From Callorhinchus milii (Eukaryota): a DNA stretch of 64,000 bases. The stretch covers positions 1-64,000 of the forward strand of contig NW_024704951.1 in assembly GCF_018977255.1 (NCBI RefSeq), in the 5' to 3' direction. Of this stretch, positions 24,001 through 63,000 are shown in pieces; positions within the stretch are counted from its first letter, which is position 1; each line of letters opens with the position of its first letter. A program made the position numbers.

Positions 24001-27000
24001 ACAAAGGTTGTCAGTGACATTCATGTCGCGGGCAGGGATATTTACCTGCACGATGATAGACTCGCTCATGCTGTGTGAGCTAAAATGGTTTATGATGATA
24101 GTTTACCAGACCGTAGCGTGGGTAGCAAGCGGGTGCGGAGAACCGAGTGTACACATCAACTTCAGGCATAGCCGCCAGCTCGGACCTTGCTACTTTGTCT
24201 ACCGACCTTAGCTCAAAATAGGGGGAAGACAGAACTTTCTCATGACGTTGCGAAACCCTATGTGAGTTGGATGGAGTGGAGGGCGGATAAACTCGAAGAG
24301 GACGCAGGAGGGCGACCTATATAGTAATCTGAACGACTTACAATTCGGGATATCACGGTAATTCCTACGTATTTGTCGCTGGGAAGCAACACTGCAGGTG
24401 TGCCGTTAAAAGCTCACTAGAAGAGCCCGTATTCATCGTGACGGAAGAAGATTCAGATTCCTAAGCGACAACTCTCTAGCAGGATGGCGGATTCCACACG
24501 GTTGCGATGCGAAATACCTAAGCATCATCTAACACCCCCAGAATCAACAGAGTTAAGTCCGCCGCTGGAAGCTAGAGACCGTAGTTTGGCCCATACAGTT
24601 GGCGCCCGAGGATCCCTTCAGATTTTAAACGCGCTTATAGGGCAGGAACTTGGGACTTCTCAGAGAAATTGTTGGATGCGAGCGCTTGCTATTATACCGA
24701 GATTGCCCTGTCTCTGCCATGTCTTTTCATGCATAGAGTAAACACACCTGCCCCTCACGATTGAAACCTCGCAGATTGGTATCGTGACTTCCACTTAGAG
24801 TCAAGTACCACTTGACCTCGGCGATAGCATACAGATGTACAAAATCAGCATGGAACATAAAAGGTTGACTCCGGGTAATGAGCGTTAGAGTGTCGAGGGA
24901 TATAGTTATCCCCGTGCCCATGCAATGCACTACAGTACTTGTTTCGATTGTGATGTGAATTTTATATTCTTATTCTTGGTTCTTTCGGTAAAGTCACGTA
25001 GAAGGGAAATAATAAAATAATAATAAAAAACGATAAATATGCCTCGAAGCCCTATGTTAATCCAAAACTCGAAGCATACAATTTCGGTTGTCTGACTAGA
25101 AAATGAATATTTATGAAAGCTAAATTCAGCTAACAAAGCAAAGGGTGTTGAAAATAATACTGTTTGTATTATGCATAAATTAATGTTCAAACGAAACTTA
25201 GAGGTGTGAAGCCAGGCTTAAGTATTGAATATCGCACTTTTAGCTTTCGCTCAGCAATTTCCAAGAAGGTAATTTATTTTCTGTCGATCGAGTACAGAAG
25301 AGGAGTACGGATTTTTAGCGGAAACTCGATTTCTGCATTTTTATATAATTAATGCCTATAGTATCATAAAGAGGCTTGGGGCTTTTGGTTGTTTGTTTCG
25401 GGTCCAGTTCCACTTGTTGGAGACTCAGTGGAACGTAGACCCTAGATGTAGACGAAGGTTTCTTAAGGTTGAACAACAACGCCGGTTCCTCTGGGGGACC
25501 CGGCTTATATTCTCTGCGGTTTGGCTGGCTCCCTCCCTTGGCCACGACCACTTTCCAGAATCCTCGAGCAGGATCTGGACCTCGACCACGTGACCACCCC
25601 TAGCCCCCACTTGGGGCCCTTCGTAGACTTAACTGGTCACGTGTCCTCTCGGGTCAACCAGAGTGCCATGGCCTTTAGTAACCTCATTCCTACGGCCGTC
25701 ACTCCCACACCCTATCCTGTAGGGCCAGCACTGCATGCCAAGCGTGGTGCCATCCTGCGCTATCAATCAGCGCTCTAGGGCTGGTACGACACCCACCATA
25801 GTGGTATCCGCGATGTCGTTACACCGCACGCCGTGCCTCTCGAGGGCCAGCACGACACAGTGACATCCCGCGATGTCACTAGATCTGTAAGAGTTTATCT
25901 GTGGGGAGCGGTGGCGCAGTTATTACACTGTGTAACAAAAAAACATTTTTGTTCCTGGGTAGTGTTATTTCCTCATTGCCTATTCCTCAAAAGTACAGAT
26001 TATTCCCCACAAACTTTGCTTTTTTGATCAGGACAGTGATATTTTGAAATTTACCTATTTTCAATGAGAAAACGGGCTAATTTGTGTCTTTTCGTTCACA
26101 TAAAGTCCTGGTCACAAAAGCAAAGTTTGTGGGGAATAATAGCGATTTTGTATACTTTTTAGGCATACGCAATTAAAAAATAACACTTTGTACACAGGAA
26201 CAAAAATTGTGTTACATAGTATTATTACTGTATTATGAATTCAATAATTTGAGTTTGATTATCTCCGACAACAAACGTGATTGATAAGTGAAAACTTAAC
26301 TTCTTGTGGGTCTCGGCTATGTTGATTGATCTTCAATTAATTACTTGGTGAAGTGAGAGAAGCATTCATATTGAGCAGATGAAGGTGGCCAGGCATGGTT
26401 CTGGACACACCACCACCTTTTTACCATGCCAGTGTGTAACAGTGTCAAGTTTGTATTTGCAGTAAAGTATATTAACTCTATTGAACACGGAGGTTAAATC
26501 AAAACAATAGTTTATTTTAGTTTTCCTTTGGAACTTTTTACGAAAATGAACACGACACATATGCAGCTGAAGTTAGTTCTGTTCATCCCAGCATTCAAGG
26601 AAATCTGAGCCTGGCTTCACACCTCTAAGTTTCGTTTGAACATTAATTTATGCATAATACAAACAGTATTATTTTCAACACCCTTTGCTTTGTTAGCTGA
26701 ATTTAGCTTTCATAAATATTCATTTTCTAGTCAGACAATCGAAATTGTATGCTTCGAGTTTTGGGTTAACATAGGGCTTCGAGGCATATTTATGACTATT
26801 TGCCCTCATTGTTTGTCATAACAGCCCGTGTGATGAATTTGGGAATATTAATAAGTATAGACGTGTAAGTCATATGTGCCTCGATACTTACGTAGATGGT
26901 GTGGATATTCTCTTTTTTCTGTCTGCAGCTGACGCTTCCTCTGACGCTTCCTCTGCAGAATTGGTCTGATGGAGCAAAGACCCTCAGCGCAGTTTGGTAC

Positions 27001-60000: not shown

Positions 60001-63000
60001 CGTGTCCTCTCGGGTCATCCAGATTGCCTTTCGTAACCTCATTCCTACGGCCGGTACTCACACACCCTATCCTGTAGTGCCGGCACTGCACGCCAAGCAT
60101 GGTGCCATCCTGCGCTATCAGTCAGCGCTCACCGTGCCCCTTTAGGGCCGGTAGTACACCCATCATAGTGGTATCCGCGATGTCGTTACACCGCATGCCA
60201 TGTTTCTCTAGGGCCGGCACTACACAGTGACATCCCGCGATATCACTACATCTGTAAGAGTTGATTTATGTGGTGAGCGATGGCGTAGTTATTACACTGT
60301 GTAACAAAAAAACATTTTTGTTCCTGGGTAGTTATTTCCTAATTGCCTATGCCTCAAAAGTACAGAAAATGCTATTCCCCACAAACTTTGCTTTTCTGAC
60401 TAGGACAGTGATATTTTGAAACGTGCCTATTTTCAATGATAAAATGGGCGAATTTGTGTCTTTTCTTTCACATAAAGTCCTGGTCACAAAAGCAACGCTT
60501 GTGGGGGATAATAGCGATTTTCTATACTTTTTAGGCAAAATAAATTGAAAATAACACTTTGTACCCAAGAACAAGATATGTTTTACATCGTATTATCATT
60601 GTATTATGAACTCAATAATTAGAGTTTGATTATCTCCGACAACAAACGTGATTGATAAGTGAAAACTTAACTTCTTGTGGGTCTCGTCTGTGTTGATTGA
60701 TCCTCAATTAATTACTTGGTGAAGTGAGGAAGCATTAATATTGAGCAGATGAAGGTGGGCAGGCATGGTTCTGGACACACCACCACCTTTTTACCATGCC
60801 AGTATGTGACGGTGTAAAGTTTGTATTTGCAGTAAAGTATATTAACTCTTTTGAACACGGAGGTTAAATCAAAATAATAGTTTATTTTGTTTTCCTCTGG
60901 AACTTTTTATAAGAATGGAAACAGGAAATTAACACAGCACATATGCAGCTGAAGTTAGATCTGTTCATCCCAGCATTCATGGAAATCTGAGCCTCGCTTC
61001 ACACCTTGAAGTTGTGATTAAGTTGTGATTGAACATTAATTTAAGCTTTGTTAGCTGAATTTAGCTTTTATAAATATTAATTTTTTAGCCAGACAACCGA
61101 AATTGTGTGCTTGGAGTTTGGGTTAACATTCATTTTGAAGATACTTGGGCTTACAGGCATATTTATGACCATTTGCCCTCTCATTGTTTGTCATAACAGC
61201 CCGTGTGATGAATTTGGAAATATGTTTCACTATATCATGAACATGTCAATAAGTATAGATGTGTAAGTCATGTGTAACTGTGTATATAATTATTCCTCTG
61301 TGCCTCGATACTGATGTAGATGGTGTGGATATTCTCTTTTTTCTGTCTGCAGCTGACGCTTCCTCTGCAGAATTGGTCTGATGGAGCAAAGGCGCTCAGC
61401 GCAGCTTGGTACAAAAAGGCAACAATGCGACCATTGTGCATACAGCACGGATCAAACTGGACATTTGACACAGCACCAAAGAACTCACACAGGAGAGAAA
61501 CCCTTCAAGTGCACTTTGTGTGACAAGGCATTTGCATGGTCATCAGGTCTTCATCACCACGAGAGAACACACAAAGGAGAGAAACTCTTTAGGTGTACTC
61601 TGTGCGGGAAGGCGTTTGCACAATCACCACATCTTCAAATACACCAGAGAACACACACGGGAGAGAAACCCTTCAAGTGCAGTGTGTGTGGGAAGGCGTT
61701 TTCACAGTCATCTAATCTTGTATCACACCAGAGAACACACACAGGAGAGAAACCCTTCAGGTGCACTTTGTGCGGGAAAGCGTTTTCAGGCTTATCAAAT
61801 CTTAAAACACACCAGAGAACACACACGGGAGAGAAACCCTTCAAGTGCAGTCTGTGCGGGAAGGCGTTTACAGTGTTATCACATCTTAAACAACACCAGA
61901 GAACACACACAAAAGAGAAACCTTTCAAGTGCACTGTCTGTGAGAAGGCATTTGCATGGCCATCAGGTCTTAATTGCCACCAGAGAACACACACGGGAGA
62001 GAAGCTCTTCACGTGCACTCTCTGCGGAAGGCGTTTGCTCAGTCATCCATTCTTAAAACACACCAGAGGACACACAATCATCAGAAGATCCCAAGGAGTG
62101 GAGTCTGAAATCGGCTTGTGAAAGTCAAAGTGCTGCAATCAGCCCATCCTCATGAAACCAGAACTAAAGCCCAGCTTGGACACTTTTGAAGGTATCAAGG
62201 TGAAATGTGAAGAGGCGAAGGTGAAATGTGAAGTAGTGATCAAGAGCGAAGAAATGACGATGAAATGTGAAGTGATGGTGAAGAGAGAAGTGATGGTAAA
62301 CTGTGAAGATGAAGATTCAACTCCGAAATTGGACCTTCACATCGGAGGGTGGCAACGTGAAGCAGGAGGAGATTTCTGACTGTGAGGCAGAGGGAGGCAA
62401 CTCCCAGCAGTTTGTGGAAGTAGAGGTGTGGGTCGACTTCTTAGACAATACAAAGTCAAATGGAGACCCGGTAGATGTGTAAGCTTGGGACAATGAAGCT
62501 CCAATAGATTCACCTCTGTCACAGGCCTTTAATGAAAAGAACGTGAAGTCGAACACTCAATTCCTGGGTTTAACCTGCAGAGTAAGAGCGACCAGTATTT
62601 GTGGATCTGTGGGTTGGGTAGATGATTAACCATGAGCAAGAGCCAATAAGCTCCCAAGTGTTGTATATATTAGGTCTTGAAAAAGAATGAAAATTAAATG
62701 ATAACTGAAAATGCGCAATGTTTTGAAATGATGCTAATTATGTATTTATGCTATATCTCGGGGTATTACCAATCGTGATAATAATATAAAGGTGTAATTG
62801 TATGAAGTTATGCAAGTGTATGTAATTATGCGAATTAGGCTCTGCTTCGTTGTCTCAGGGTGTATTACCAATCGTGCTAATACATTGACTTAAAGCTGGA
62901 TTCATATTCTTTGGACCTTTCGGTAAAGTCACGTAGGTAGGTTTTTGTTATTTTCTTTGAACCTATCAACGTGACTTTACCGAAAGACCTAAAGAATATA

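What the first reader, a model, noticed from the sequence alone, without database searches (positions are those of the whole stretch)
24924..62665. Recently amplified tandem array of KRAB-less C2H2 ZNF genes in an ~8.8 kb unit
Seen: four near-identical units plus an older paralog, each with one ZF exon. Established: tandem ZNF clusters (KRAB-ZNF in tetrapods, FiNZ-ZNF in cyprinid fish) expand rapidly and often silence TEs. Inference: this may be an independent lineage-specific ZNF family caught mid-expansion. The TE mix (V-SINE-like, Rex3-like, Penelope, Helitron) suggests a non-amniote vertebrate; a cyclostome such as hagfish is only a guess.
Basis: partly seen in the sequence, partly recalled or inferred. 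Interest (0 to 1): 0.7.

Follow-up and report, generated by a model that had tools for sequence, protein, structure and literature searches.

The report
Tandem zinc-finger gene array, error-prone contig
A head-to-tail array of about 8.8 kb units, each carrying one many-fingered C2H2 zinc-finger exon without a KRAB domain, is really there, but it is an ordinary kind of fast-evolving animal gene cluster, and every copy's reading frame is broken in this assembly, probably in part by sequencing errors.

Summary
From 24921 to about 62662 the window holds three full units (8930, 8736 and 8644 bp), a fourth young unit that runs into an older colinear unit at about 56798, and one poly-C2H2 zinc-finger exon per unit.

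Three caveats:
- **Filler on the left.** Bases 1-24920 are indistinguishable from random sequence. The array's left edge is only where real sequence starts, so copy number is open on that side.
- **Broken frames.** All five exons are frameshifted against their common frame, which is itself an intact 396-codon ORF.
- **Indel excess.** Small indels equal or outnumber substitutions between units: 58 against 38 for A-B, 30 against 8 for B-D. No stop codon arose in 100 substitutions between A and E (P=0.007). Many frameshifts are therefore probably long-read consensus errors.

No KRAB, SCAN, BTB or transposon protein domain was found.

Best reading: a lineage-specific tandem cluster of poly-zinc-finger genes, shaped by unequal crossing-over and gene conversion, with a Lys/Glu-rich C-terminal tail. 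Species, family size and expression could not be checked. It is ordinary in kind.

The parts
24921..33850 (+). Unit A (8930 bp). Its left end is the start of real sequence, not a repeat boundary.
   Evidence: Three BLAST alignments all begin at 24921. Composition switches there from random-like to CpG o/e 0.65.
33851..42586 (+). Unit B (8736 bp)
   Evidence: A-B: 38 substitutions (0.44%) and 58 gap events.
42587..51230 (+). Unit C (8644 bp). A mosaic: 3.5-6% diverged only over the zinc-finger exon plus its 3' flank and one further 500-bp bin, under 1% elsewhere. It has the most indels.
51231..56798 (+). Unit D, young part. It lacks the 564 bp corresponding to 30690-31253 of A and continues into the old unit.
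   Evidence: 54008-56798 matches 27920-30689 at 97.4%, then 56796-57173 matches 31254-31662 at 84.6%. B-D: 8 substitutions and 30 gap events in 5171 aligned bases (first 11 bins summed).
56789..62662 (+). Older unit, colinear with the young units. It lacks their roughly 2 kb block (B 40408-42447) and their 293 bp at B 33851-34144, and carries its own roughly 2.3 kb insert (57510-59780).
   Evidence: sensitive BLASTN. About 90% identity in aligned bases, in exon and flank alike.
26969..28158 (+). Zinc-finger exon coding region, copy A. ATG at 26969, 9 fingers, Lys/Glu-rich tail. As given, the frame stops at 28034-28036 after a 1-bp shortfall in a G run near 28026. The common frame ends at the TAA at 28156-28158.
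   Evidence: Pfam. PDB best match ZNF568, E=1.4e-93.
35889..36909 (+). Zinc-finger exon, copy B. 7 fingers and 2 frameshifts (about 36143 in an A run, about 36415). The tail is complete in its own frame (36397-36909).
44607..45589 (+). Zinc-finger exon, copy C. About 7 fingers, 22 frameshifting indels (20 of them inside the finger repeats 44627-45159), and 1 in-frame stop after frame correction.
   Evidence: dN/dS against A, B and D is 0.51-0.58.
53262..54243 (+). Zinc-finger exon, copy D. 7 fingers, no substitutions against B in 321 codons, 2 frameshifts (53873, 54111), and a 36-bp deletion in the tail repeat.
61381..62482 (+). Zinc-finger exon, old copy E. 8 fingers (the last disrupted), 4 frameshifts, and 0 in-frame stops after frame correction.
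26900..26968 (+). Pyrimidine tract with two CAG acceptor-like sites and the leader up to the ATG. It is identical in all five copies apart from a 12-bp duplication absent from E, one A-specific substitution inside that 12-bp block, and a 1-bp gap in C.
   Evidence: Alignment, columns 13-81; sequence. Acceptor use is inferred; there are no transcript data.
27884..27964 (+). Coding 36-39 bp tandem repeat in the tail (the VKCE-type motifs). Its length varies between copies (+3 bp in A and B, different 3-bp changes in C and E, -36 bp in D).
   Evidence: TRF, alignment, event list. psi-K-x-[ED] motifs: 6 against 0.87 in shuffles.
33963..35713 (.). 186-nt inverted repeat pair (99% complementary) enclosing 1379 bp and ending about 165 bp upstream of the zinc-finger exon. 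It is present in every young unit. The old unit lacks the left arm.
   Evidence: Seen in copy A.
38372..38524 (.). Hairpin MITE of a family whose terminal core occurs 20 times in 24921-64000. Other copies include 58867-59270 and 62904-62999.
   Evidence: 20 matches, 0 expected. It gives sub-threshold miRNA-hairpin hits in Rfam.
38586..38615 (+). Pair of perfect TGACGTCA palindromes, once per young unit (also 29828-29860, 47238-47267, 55910-55940), in a CpG-rich stretch. A promoter role is only a guess.
   Evidence: 8 matches, 0.94 expected; sequence.
48992..49432 (-). Degenerate ORF with a Helitron_like_N resemblance, inside the roughly 2 kb block that the old unit lacks.
   Evidence: ESM Atlas score 0.97, 200 of 256 features. 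Not confirmed: 0 Pfam hits at E up to 10; PDB gave nothing meaningful.

Best explanation
This is a genuine tandem cluster of paralogous poly-C2H2 zinc-finger genes in a CpG-depleted animal genome that is not human-like.

**What each unit encodes.** Each roughly 8.8 kb unit carries one large coding exon. It encodes a 15-residue leader, 7-9 canonical fingers joined by TGEKP-type linkers, and a roughly 135-residue Lys/Glu/Val/Ser-rich tail. The tail holds a cluster of psi-K-x-E (SUMO-consensus-like) motifs.

**How the array arose.** It grew in at least two rounds. An older duplication is about 10% diverged. A recent amplification is 0.15-1.7% diverged. Unequal crossing-over is the likely cause. 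Gene conversion then made unit C a mosaic, and fingers were gained and lost between copies.

**Likely function (inferred, not shown).** The protein would be a sequence-specific DNA-binding factor, most likely a repressor, of the fast-evolving class that often targets transposable elements.

**The broken frames.** Most of the frameshifts that break all five copies here are probably long-read consensus errors rather than mutations. At least the A/B/D type is therefore probably an intact gene.

Shown: the repeat structure, the finger content, the absence of known accessory domains, the indel excess, and the absence of stop codons. Inferred: the mechanism of amplification, the error origin of the frameshifts, and the function.
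For: **Structure.**

**Canonical fingers.** Pfam zf-C2H2 E=4.9e-52 and zf-H2C2_2 E=2.9e-76. The best solved relatives are the ZNF568, Aart, CTCF and PRDM9 finger arrays.

**Common frame.** The column-majority frame of the five copies is one open 396-codon ORF.

**Coding constraint.**
- There are 0 stops in 361 codons despite 100 differences between A and E. Simulation gives a mean of 4.65 stops and P(0)=0.007.
- dN/dS is 0.51-0.58 for C against A, B and D. The tail is 0.31-0.38, the scaffold 0.50-0.57, and the contact residues show 7 non-synonymous to 1 synonymous change.

**Indel excess.**
- A-B: 38 substitutions against 58 gap events, 49 of them 1 bp.
- B-D young part: 8 substitutions against 30 gap events. 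B-C first bin: 0 substitutions against 8 gaps.
- Of the 9 frameshifts in A, B, D and E, 8 are deletions, and 6 shorten a run of 3 or more identical bases (read).
- For B's private 1-bp deletions, 7 of 15 lie in runs of 3 or more, against 19% of bases in such runs.

**Finger turnover.** A2 matches E2 and is lost in B, C and D. A8 is a copy of A3 (80 of 84 bases) and occurs only in A.

**Mosaic unit C.**

**Context.** Lineage-specific expansions of tandem-repeat ZNF ORFs, with various accessory domains, are reported across metazoans (PMC10547256; abstract and passages read).
Against: - Every copy is frameshifted as given, including the cleanest ones (A: 1, D: 2).
- A and D share the same 1-bp shortfall, which could be a real inherited mutation.
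- Between E and the young copies the exon is no better conserved than the non-coding flank (about 90% in both), and dN/dS is 0.75-0.78. That is close to neutral.
- Copy C has one in-frame stop and 22 frameshifts. Its 1-bp deletions are only mildly run-biased: 13 of 44 lie in runs of 3 or more.
- In A, B and D the last finger's final His is Tyr.
- The tail's motif count is inflated by an internal tandem repeat.
- There are no transcripts, no reads, no relatives from other genomes, and no test of any function.
- The error explanation rests on my recalled expectation that natural indels are several-fold rarer than substitutions.
Confidence: 0.55

Rival explanations
1. The array is real but dead. 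It is a tandemly amplified block of zinc-finger pseudogenes decaying neutrally, and the frameshifts are true mutations.
For: - All 5 of 5 copies are frameshifted.
- The E-to-young exon divergence equals the flank divergence.
- dN/dS is 0.75-0.78.
- C has 22 frameshifts and one stop.
- The terminal finger has a His-to-Tyr change in A, B and D.
- The same G-run shortfall occurs in both A and D.
Against: - There are 0 stop codons in 100 A-E differences (P=0.007).
- C's tail dN/dS is 0.31-0.38.
- Indels equal or exceed substitutions even where substitutions are nearly absent, which natural decay would not be expected to give (expectation recalled, not tested here).
- The disruptions are independent. 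Only one of the nine in A, B, D and E is shared, and only by A and D.
Confidence: 0.25
2. Assembly artefact. Fewer real units exist (1-2 young copies), and noisy long reads of the same unit were laid out as successive tandem copies on a short contig.
For: - B and D differ by only 8 substitutions in 5171 bases but by 30 small gaps. That is what two noisy renderings of one sequence would look like.
- Real sequence in the window is only 39,080 bp and starts inside the array.
Against: - The units differ by discrete structural changes that noise does not make: 84-bp finger blocks, a 36-bp tail deletion in D, 22-29 bp indels, and a mosaic 4-5% diverged segment in C.
- A differs from B and D by clustered substitutions at 25.9-27.3 kb.
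Confidence: 0.12
3. Transposon-borne amplification. The zinc-finger exon is cargo of a mobile element (Helitron-like rolling-circle, or the inverted-repeat element next to it), and the tandem copies arose from its replication rather than from unequal crossing-over.
For: - There is a Helitron_like_N lead for a minus-strand ORF in every young unit.
- A 186-nt inverted repeat pair lies directly upstream of each exon.
- MITE ends are frequent around the exons.
Against: - Pfam finds no Rep, helicase or transposase domain in any ORF set.
- The Helitron-like block is a roughly 2 kb insert absent from the old unit, so it arrived after the zinc-finger units already existed in tandem.
- MITE ends show no consistent bracket around the exon: three plus-strand and one minus-strand core per unit.
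- The old unit lacks the left arm of the inverted repeat.
Confidence: 0.05

Closest known systems
KRAB zinc-finger gene clusters of tetrapods (for example the solved ZNF568 finger array)
   Same: - Many canonical C2H2 fingers with TGEKP linkers in one large exon, with the best PDB match to ZNF568.
- Clustered paralogues.
- Finger gain and loss, with change concentrated at contact residues.
   Different: - No KRAB box was found in the ORF or between exons.
- The non-finger part is a C-terminal Lys/Glu-rich tail, not an N-terminal domain.
- The units are a regular head-to-tail 8.8 kb repeat at 97-99.8% identity rather than an irregular cluster.
FiNZ zinc-finger genes of cyprinid fish (PMC10547256; abstract and passages read)
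   Same: KRAB-less, clustered, rapidly expanding poly-ZNF genes in a non-mammalian genome. Positive selection on the fingers and a link to TE repression are reported there.
   Different: - The FiNZ domain is N-terminal (recalled). Here only 15 residues precede the first finger in the exon, and no upstream coding exon was identified.
- No FiNZ model was available to test.
- The taxon here is unknown.
Macrosatellite gene arrays (kilobase-scale tandem units that each hold an ORF, such as D4Z4/DUX4; recalled, not tested)
   Same: Head-to-tail units of several kb, each with one ORF, at very high inter-unit identity with signs of concerted evolution.
   Different: Only 4-5 units are seen. The gene family is different. 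Copy-number polymorphism and chromatin state are unknown.

Membership tests
Poly-C2H2 (Krueppel-type) zinc-finger proteins | Multiple tandem C-x2-C-x12-H-x3-H fingers that match Pfam zf-C2H2 | tested here: met
   PF00096 E=4.9e-52, 8 stretches, 171.9 bits against a cut-off of 25.2; 9 fingers in A, 7 in D, 7 intact plus 1 broken in E.
Poly-C2H2 (Krueppel-type) zinc-finger proteins | Conserved TGEKP-type linkers with an 84-bp (28-residue) period | tested here: met
   TRF period 84 in all five exons; linkers are visible; PF13465 E=2.9e-76.
KRAB-ZNF | KRAB A/B box encoded upstream of the finger exon | tested here: not met
   No KRAB hit in the exon ORF, in 92 of 92 plus-strand ORFs of 28 aa or more between two exons, or in 87 ORFs of 75 aa or more. 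An exon shorter than 28 codons, or one lying outside the unit, would be missed.
SCAN-, BTB/POZ- or ZAD-ZNF | The respective N-terminal Pfam domain | tested here: not met
   Same scans: 0 hits.
FiNZ-ZNF | FiNZ N-terminal domain | not testable with these tools
   No hit named FiNZ appeared in any Pfam scan, and I had no FiNZ sequence from a tool.
Helitron (for the minus-strand ORF in each young unit) | Rep (Helitron_like_N) and PIF1-type helicase domains | tested here: not met
   Pfam found 0 hits at E up to 10 for 8 minus-strand ORFs. There is only an ESM Atlas feature resemblance of 0.97. Termini were not identified.
Recent tandem (segmental) duplication array | Head-to-tail units of constant period with high identity over coding and non-coding parts | tested here: met
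   periods of 8930, 8736 and 8644 bp, with 0.44-2.95% substitution divergence over whole units.
Recent tandem (segmental) duplication array | Copy number supported by read depth or spanning reads | not testable with these tools
   No reads or genome were available. /data held only the window.

The most novel reading that the evidence does not exclude
The units encode a so far undescribed poly-ZNF subfamily whose effector is not an N-terminal box (KRAB, FiNZ, ZAD, SCAN) but a C-terminal Lys/Glu-rich tail packed with SUMO-consensus-like motifs. This subfamily would be actively amplifying and homogenising as an 8.8 kb macrosatellite-like array. That would give an independent solution to the zinc-finger-versus-transposon arms race in a non-amniote lineage.
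Probability: 0.2. Interest if true: 0.5.

Novelty: new member of a known kind. Interest (0 to 1): 0.22.

Why it matters
Lineage-specific tandem expansions of poly-zinc-finger genes are a well-known and widespread feature of animal genomes (PMC10547256; passages read), so this adds one more example rather than a new principle.

Its modest value lies in three points:
- The array is unusually regular and shows concerted evolution and finger turnover at close range.
- The tail is a candidate effector module that matches no Pfam family and no Atlas cluster.
- It is a practical warning. On this contig every reading frame is broken, indels equal or outnumber substitutions, and the left third of the window is not biological. 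Calling genes or pseudogenes from it at face value would mislead.

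Tried and rejected
- **Rfam at gathering thresholds, whole window:** 0 matches. ARAGORN found 0 tRNAs, so no tRNA-derived SINE head was confirmed.
- **Rfam at E up to 1 on unit B:** only sub-threshold plant-miRNA hairpin models landing on MITE hairpins. Rejected as chance or hairpin resemblance.
- **Pfam on non-finger ORFs:** 7 long ORFs, 87 ORFs of 75 aa or more, 92 plus-strand ORFs of 28 aa or more, 67 ORFs of 45-74 aa, and 8 minus-strand ORFs at E up to 10. No transposase, reverse transcriptase, helicase, KRAB, SCAN or BTB domain appeared. 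Only isolated weak hits to unrelated families were seen (I-TevI_DNA-bd 0.0055, AFT 0.016, KRE1 0.025, AGMP_C 0.031, VMAP-M14 0.026, DUF7372 0.046, DUF6075 0.0014, Pfc11 0.043). I take these as noise.
- **ESM Atlas on the tail:** no usable hit.
- **AlphaFold2 on the last finger plus tail, single sequence:** mean pLDDT 33.4, with no residue above 50, not even in the finger. The model is uninformative, and no fold search was made.
- **PDB search of the Helitron-like ORF:** one weak hit, E=0.013, to an unrelated antigen. Rejected.
- **Literature on cyclostome zinc-finger arrays or germline-specific DNA:** the listing and the passages of one lamprey preprint gave nothing bearing on this locus.
- **An upstream coding exon or promoter:** none could be established. 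A stretch at 26240-26540 is 95% identical between A and E against about 90% elsewhere, but I could not interpret it.
- **Left unchecked because the tools were closed:** protein homologue searches (search for homologous proteins, the search of protein representatives) and the metagenome and viral contig collections. No eukaryotic genome collection was on hand, so species, orthologues and family size stayed unchecked. The bacterial and archaeal genome scan, and the phage, plasmid and E. coli collections, were not used because they cannot hold this locus.
- **Spliced models:** The zinc-finger exon was analysed alone.

Full report
**1. What the window is**

The first 24,920 bases are not biological-looking sequence.
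- All 16 dinucleotide odds ratios lie between 0.97 and 1.02, and CpG o/e is 0.99.
- The 4-mer chi-square against an independent-base model is 213.8 on 255 degrees of freedom. The next 24.9 kb gives 3581.
- This stretch has no tandem repeat, no self-similarity at word size 11, and no Pfam hit beyond noise among the 87 ORFs scanned, which include its 54 ORFs of 75 aa or more.

From 24921 onward the composition is that of a methylated animal genome: GC 42%, CpG o/e 0.58-0.69, TpA 0.76, CpA/TpG 1.25-1.34. Three independent BLAST alignments begin exactly at 24921. The real sequence in the window is therefore 39,080 bases and begins inside the repeat.

I do not take the contig for human. There is no N in the window.

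**2. The observation**

Self-BLAST gives a head-to-tail repeat. The units are A 24921-33850, B 33851-42586, C 42587-51230 and D from 51231.

A MAFFT alignment of the four units gives these substitution divergences:

| Pair | Substitution divergence |
|---|---|
| A-B | 0.44% |
| B-D | 1.07% |
| A-D | 1.51% |
| B-C | 1.54% |
| A-C | 1.69% |
| C-D | 2.95% |

D is young (97.4% identity) only up to 56798. From there the sequence is an older unit. It is colinear with the young ones through 62662, as follows:
- 56789-57173 matches B 39991-40407.
- 57175-57303 matches B 42448-42587.
- 57333-57510 matches B 34144-34351.
- 59780-62662 matches B 34353-37085.

The older unit is about 90% identical in aligned bases. 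It lacks a roughly 2 kb block and a 293-bp block of the young units, and it has a roughly 2.3 kb insert of its own.

**3. The gene in each unit**

A 21-nt anchor at the 5' end of the exon and another at the tail's stop each occur exactly five times.

The exon is preceded by a pyrimidine tract with two CAG sites. An ATG follows (26969 in A). From the start of the shared alignment to that ATG all five copies are identical, except for:
- a 12-bp duplication missing in E;
- one A-specific substitution inside that block;
- a 1-bp gap in C.

The ORF of copy A (26969-28036) has 9 fingers. Pfam gives zf-C2H2 E=4.9e-52 and zf-H2C2_2 E=2.9e-76. The best solved relatives are the ZNF568, Aart, CTCF and PRDM9 finger arrays.

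After the fingers comes a tail of roughly 135 residues rich in E, K, V and S.
- It contains a 36-39 bp coding tandem repeat.
- It carries six psi-K-x-[ED] motifs, against 0.87 expected in shuffles (P about 1e-4). Three of these sit in the tandem repeat and are not independent.
- It matched no Pfam family and no ESM Atlas cluster.

No KRAB, SCAN, BTB or other accessory domain was found. Whether an upstream coding exon exists is open. I built and searched no spliced model.

**4. Broken frames and what they mean**

The column-majority frame of the five copies is one open 396-codon ORF. Against it every copy is frameshifted:

| Copy | Frameshifts | Note |
|---|---|---|
| A | 1 | G-run shortfall near 28026, cutting off the last 45 or so residues |
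| B | 2 | |
| D | 2 | one is the same G-run shortfall as in A |
| E | 4 | |
| C | 22 | 20 of them inside the finger repeats |

Two observations argue that many of these are not mutations.

First, small indels are as common as substitutions or more so between units:
- A-B has 38 substitutions and 58 gap events, 49 of them 1 bp.
- B-D, over the young 5171 aligned bases, has 8 substitutions and 30 gap events.
- The first 469 aligned bases of B-C have 0 substitutions and 8 gaps.

From general knowledge (recalled, not tested here), natural indels are several-fold rarer than substitutions. Of the 9 frameshifts in A, B, D and E, 8 are deletions and 6 shorten a run of three or more identical bases.

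Second, A and E differ at 100 positions in 361 comparable codons without a single stop codon. Random substitutions of the same number and transition share give a mean of 4.65 stops and no stop in only 0.7% of 20,000 trials.

Against this reading:
- dN/dS between E and the young copies is 0.75-0.78.
- The exon is no better conserved than its flank.
- C has one in-frame stop.
- C's deletions are only mildly run-biased.
- A, B and D carry Tyr in place of the last finger's final His.

I therefore put the 'intact genes behind consensus errors' reading ahead of 'dead array', but not by much. Only reads can settle it.

**5. History of the array**

- B and D are identical at all 321 comparable codons, and A differs from each by 5 substitutions.
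- C is a mosaic. It is 3.5-6% diverged from the others only over the exon and its 3' flank (A coordinates 26.9-28.9 kb) and at 29.4-29.9 kb, and under 1% diverged elsewhere.
- Within that segment dN/dS is 0.51-0.58. The contact residues show 7 non-synonymous to 1 synonymous change, and the tail is at 0.31-0.38. This suggests conversion from, or descent as, a functional diverged paralogue.
- Finger 2 of A is shared with E but absent from B, C and D. Finger 8 of A is a copy of finger 3 (80 of 84 bases) and is found in A only. The tail repeat also differs in length between copies.

This is the usual pattern for poly-ZNF clusters: unequal crossing-over, conversion and finger turnover.

**6. The rest of the unit**

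No transposon protein domain was detected in any scan.

Structural repeats are present:
- A MITE family whose 21-nt terminal core occurs 20 times (0 expected).
- Hairpin copies of that family at 38372-38524, 58867-59270 and 62904-62999.
- A 186-nt inverted repeat pair, 99% complementary, around 1.38 kb just upstream of each young exon. The old unit lacks its left arm.

One minus-strand ORF (48992-49432 in C) resembles Helitron_like_N clusters in the ESM Atlas (0.97). Pfam gives nothing for it even at E up to 10, so it is a lead only.

From memory, two stretches (around 39090-39170, and the minus-strand ORF at 58265-58594) look like fish-type SINE or LINE tails. That is recollection, not a result.

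Each young unit also has a pair of perfect TGACGTCA palindromes in a CpG-rich stretch.

**7. Comparison with what is known, and verdict**

The thing works like, and is, a poly-C2H2 zinc-finger gene cluster. It is not a KRAB, SCAN or BTB member, because the defining domains were tested and not met. FiNZ membership could not be tested.

Lineage-specific expansions of tandem-repeat ZNF ORFs across metazoans, with different accessory domains, are already described (PMC10547256; abstract and passages read). I rate this as a new member of a known kind, with low-to-moderate interest.

The boldest reading still open is that the C-terminal tail defines a new effector type for such a family.

Unchecked for lack of open tools: species, relatives elsewhere, family size, expression and read support.

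Noticed in passing
window 1-24920: This stretch is statistically indistinguishable from independent random bases. The 4-mer chi-square is 213.8 on 255 df, all dinucleotide odds are 0.97-1.02, and CpG o/e is 0.99. It has no repeats, no Pfam hits beyond noise and no RNA families. It looks like filler or padding rather than genome, and real sequence starts at 24921 +/- 4.
   Followed up: yes
window 24921-57173, whole units (strongest at 42587-48000): Small indels equal or outnumber substitutions between near-identical units: 58 gap events against 38 substitutions for A-B, and 30 against 8 for B-D. Bins with 0 substitutions hold up to 8 gaps. Transitions to transversions are about 1:1. This suggests base-level consensus errors on this contig.
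   Followed up: partly
window 33963-34148 and 35528-35713 (same in units A, C, D): A 186-nt inverted repeat pair, 99% complementary, encloses 1379 bp just upstream of each young zinc-finger exon. The old unit has the inner part and a diverged right arm but no left arm. The left arm, together with an adjacent MITE end (293 bp in all), therefore looks like a later insertion or an inverted duplication rather than an old transposon end.
   Followed up: partly
window 24980-62988 (20 sites; for example 38372-38524, 58867-59270, 62904-62999): An abundant MITE family shares a 21-nt terminal core (20 matches, 0 expected), including near-perfect hairpin copies. These give sub-threshold hits to plant miRNA hairpin models in Rfam.
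   Followed up: partly
window 29828-29860, 38586-38615, 47238-47267, 55910-55940: Two perfect TGACGTCA (CRE-like) palindromes lie 22-25 bp apart in a CpG-rich stretch, once per young unit, about 1.7 kb downstream of each zinc-finger stop. This may be a promoter, but there is no evidence either way.
   Followed up: no
window 40408-42447 (unit B; equivalents in A and C): A roughly 2 kb block absent from the old unit has strong G-over-C skew on the plus strand and degenerate minus-strand ORFs. One of them (48992-49432 in C) resembles Helitron_like_N in the ESM Atlas, but not in Pfam.
   Followed up: partly
window 30554-30622, 39305-39373, 47943-48011, 56632-56732: A 12/22-nt TAGTGTATAGTG-type microsatellite occurs once per unit and is longer in unit D next to the young-to-old switch point.
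   Followed up: no
window 26240-26540 versus 60611-60909: This non-coding stretch upstream of the exon is about 95% identical between the young and old units, against about 90% elsewhere, including the exon itself. It could be a regulatory element, a small exon or a conversion tract.
   Followed up: no
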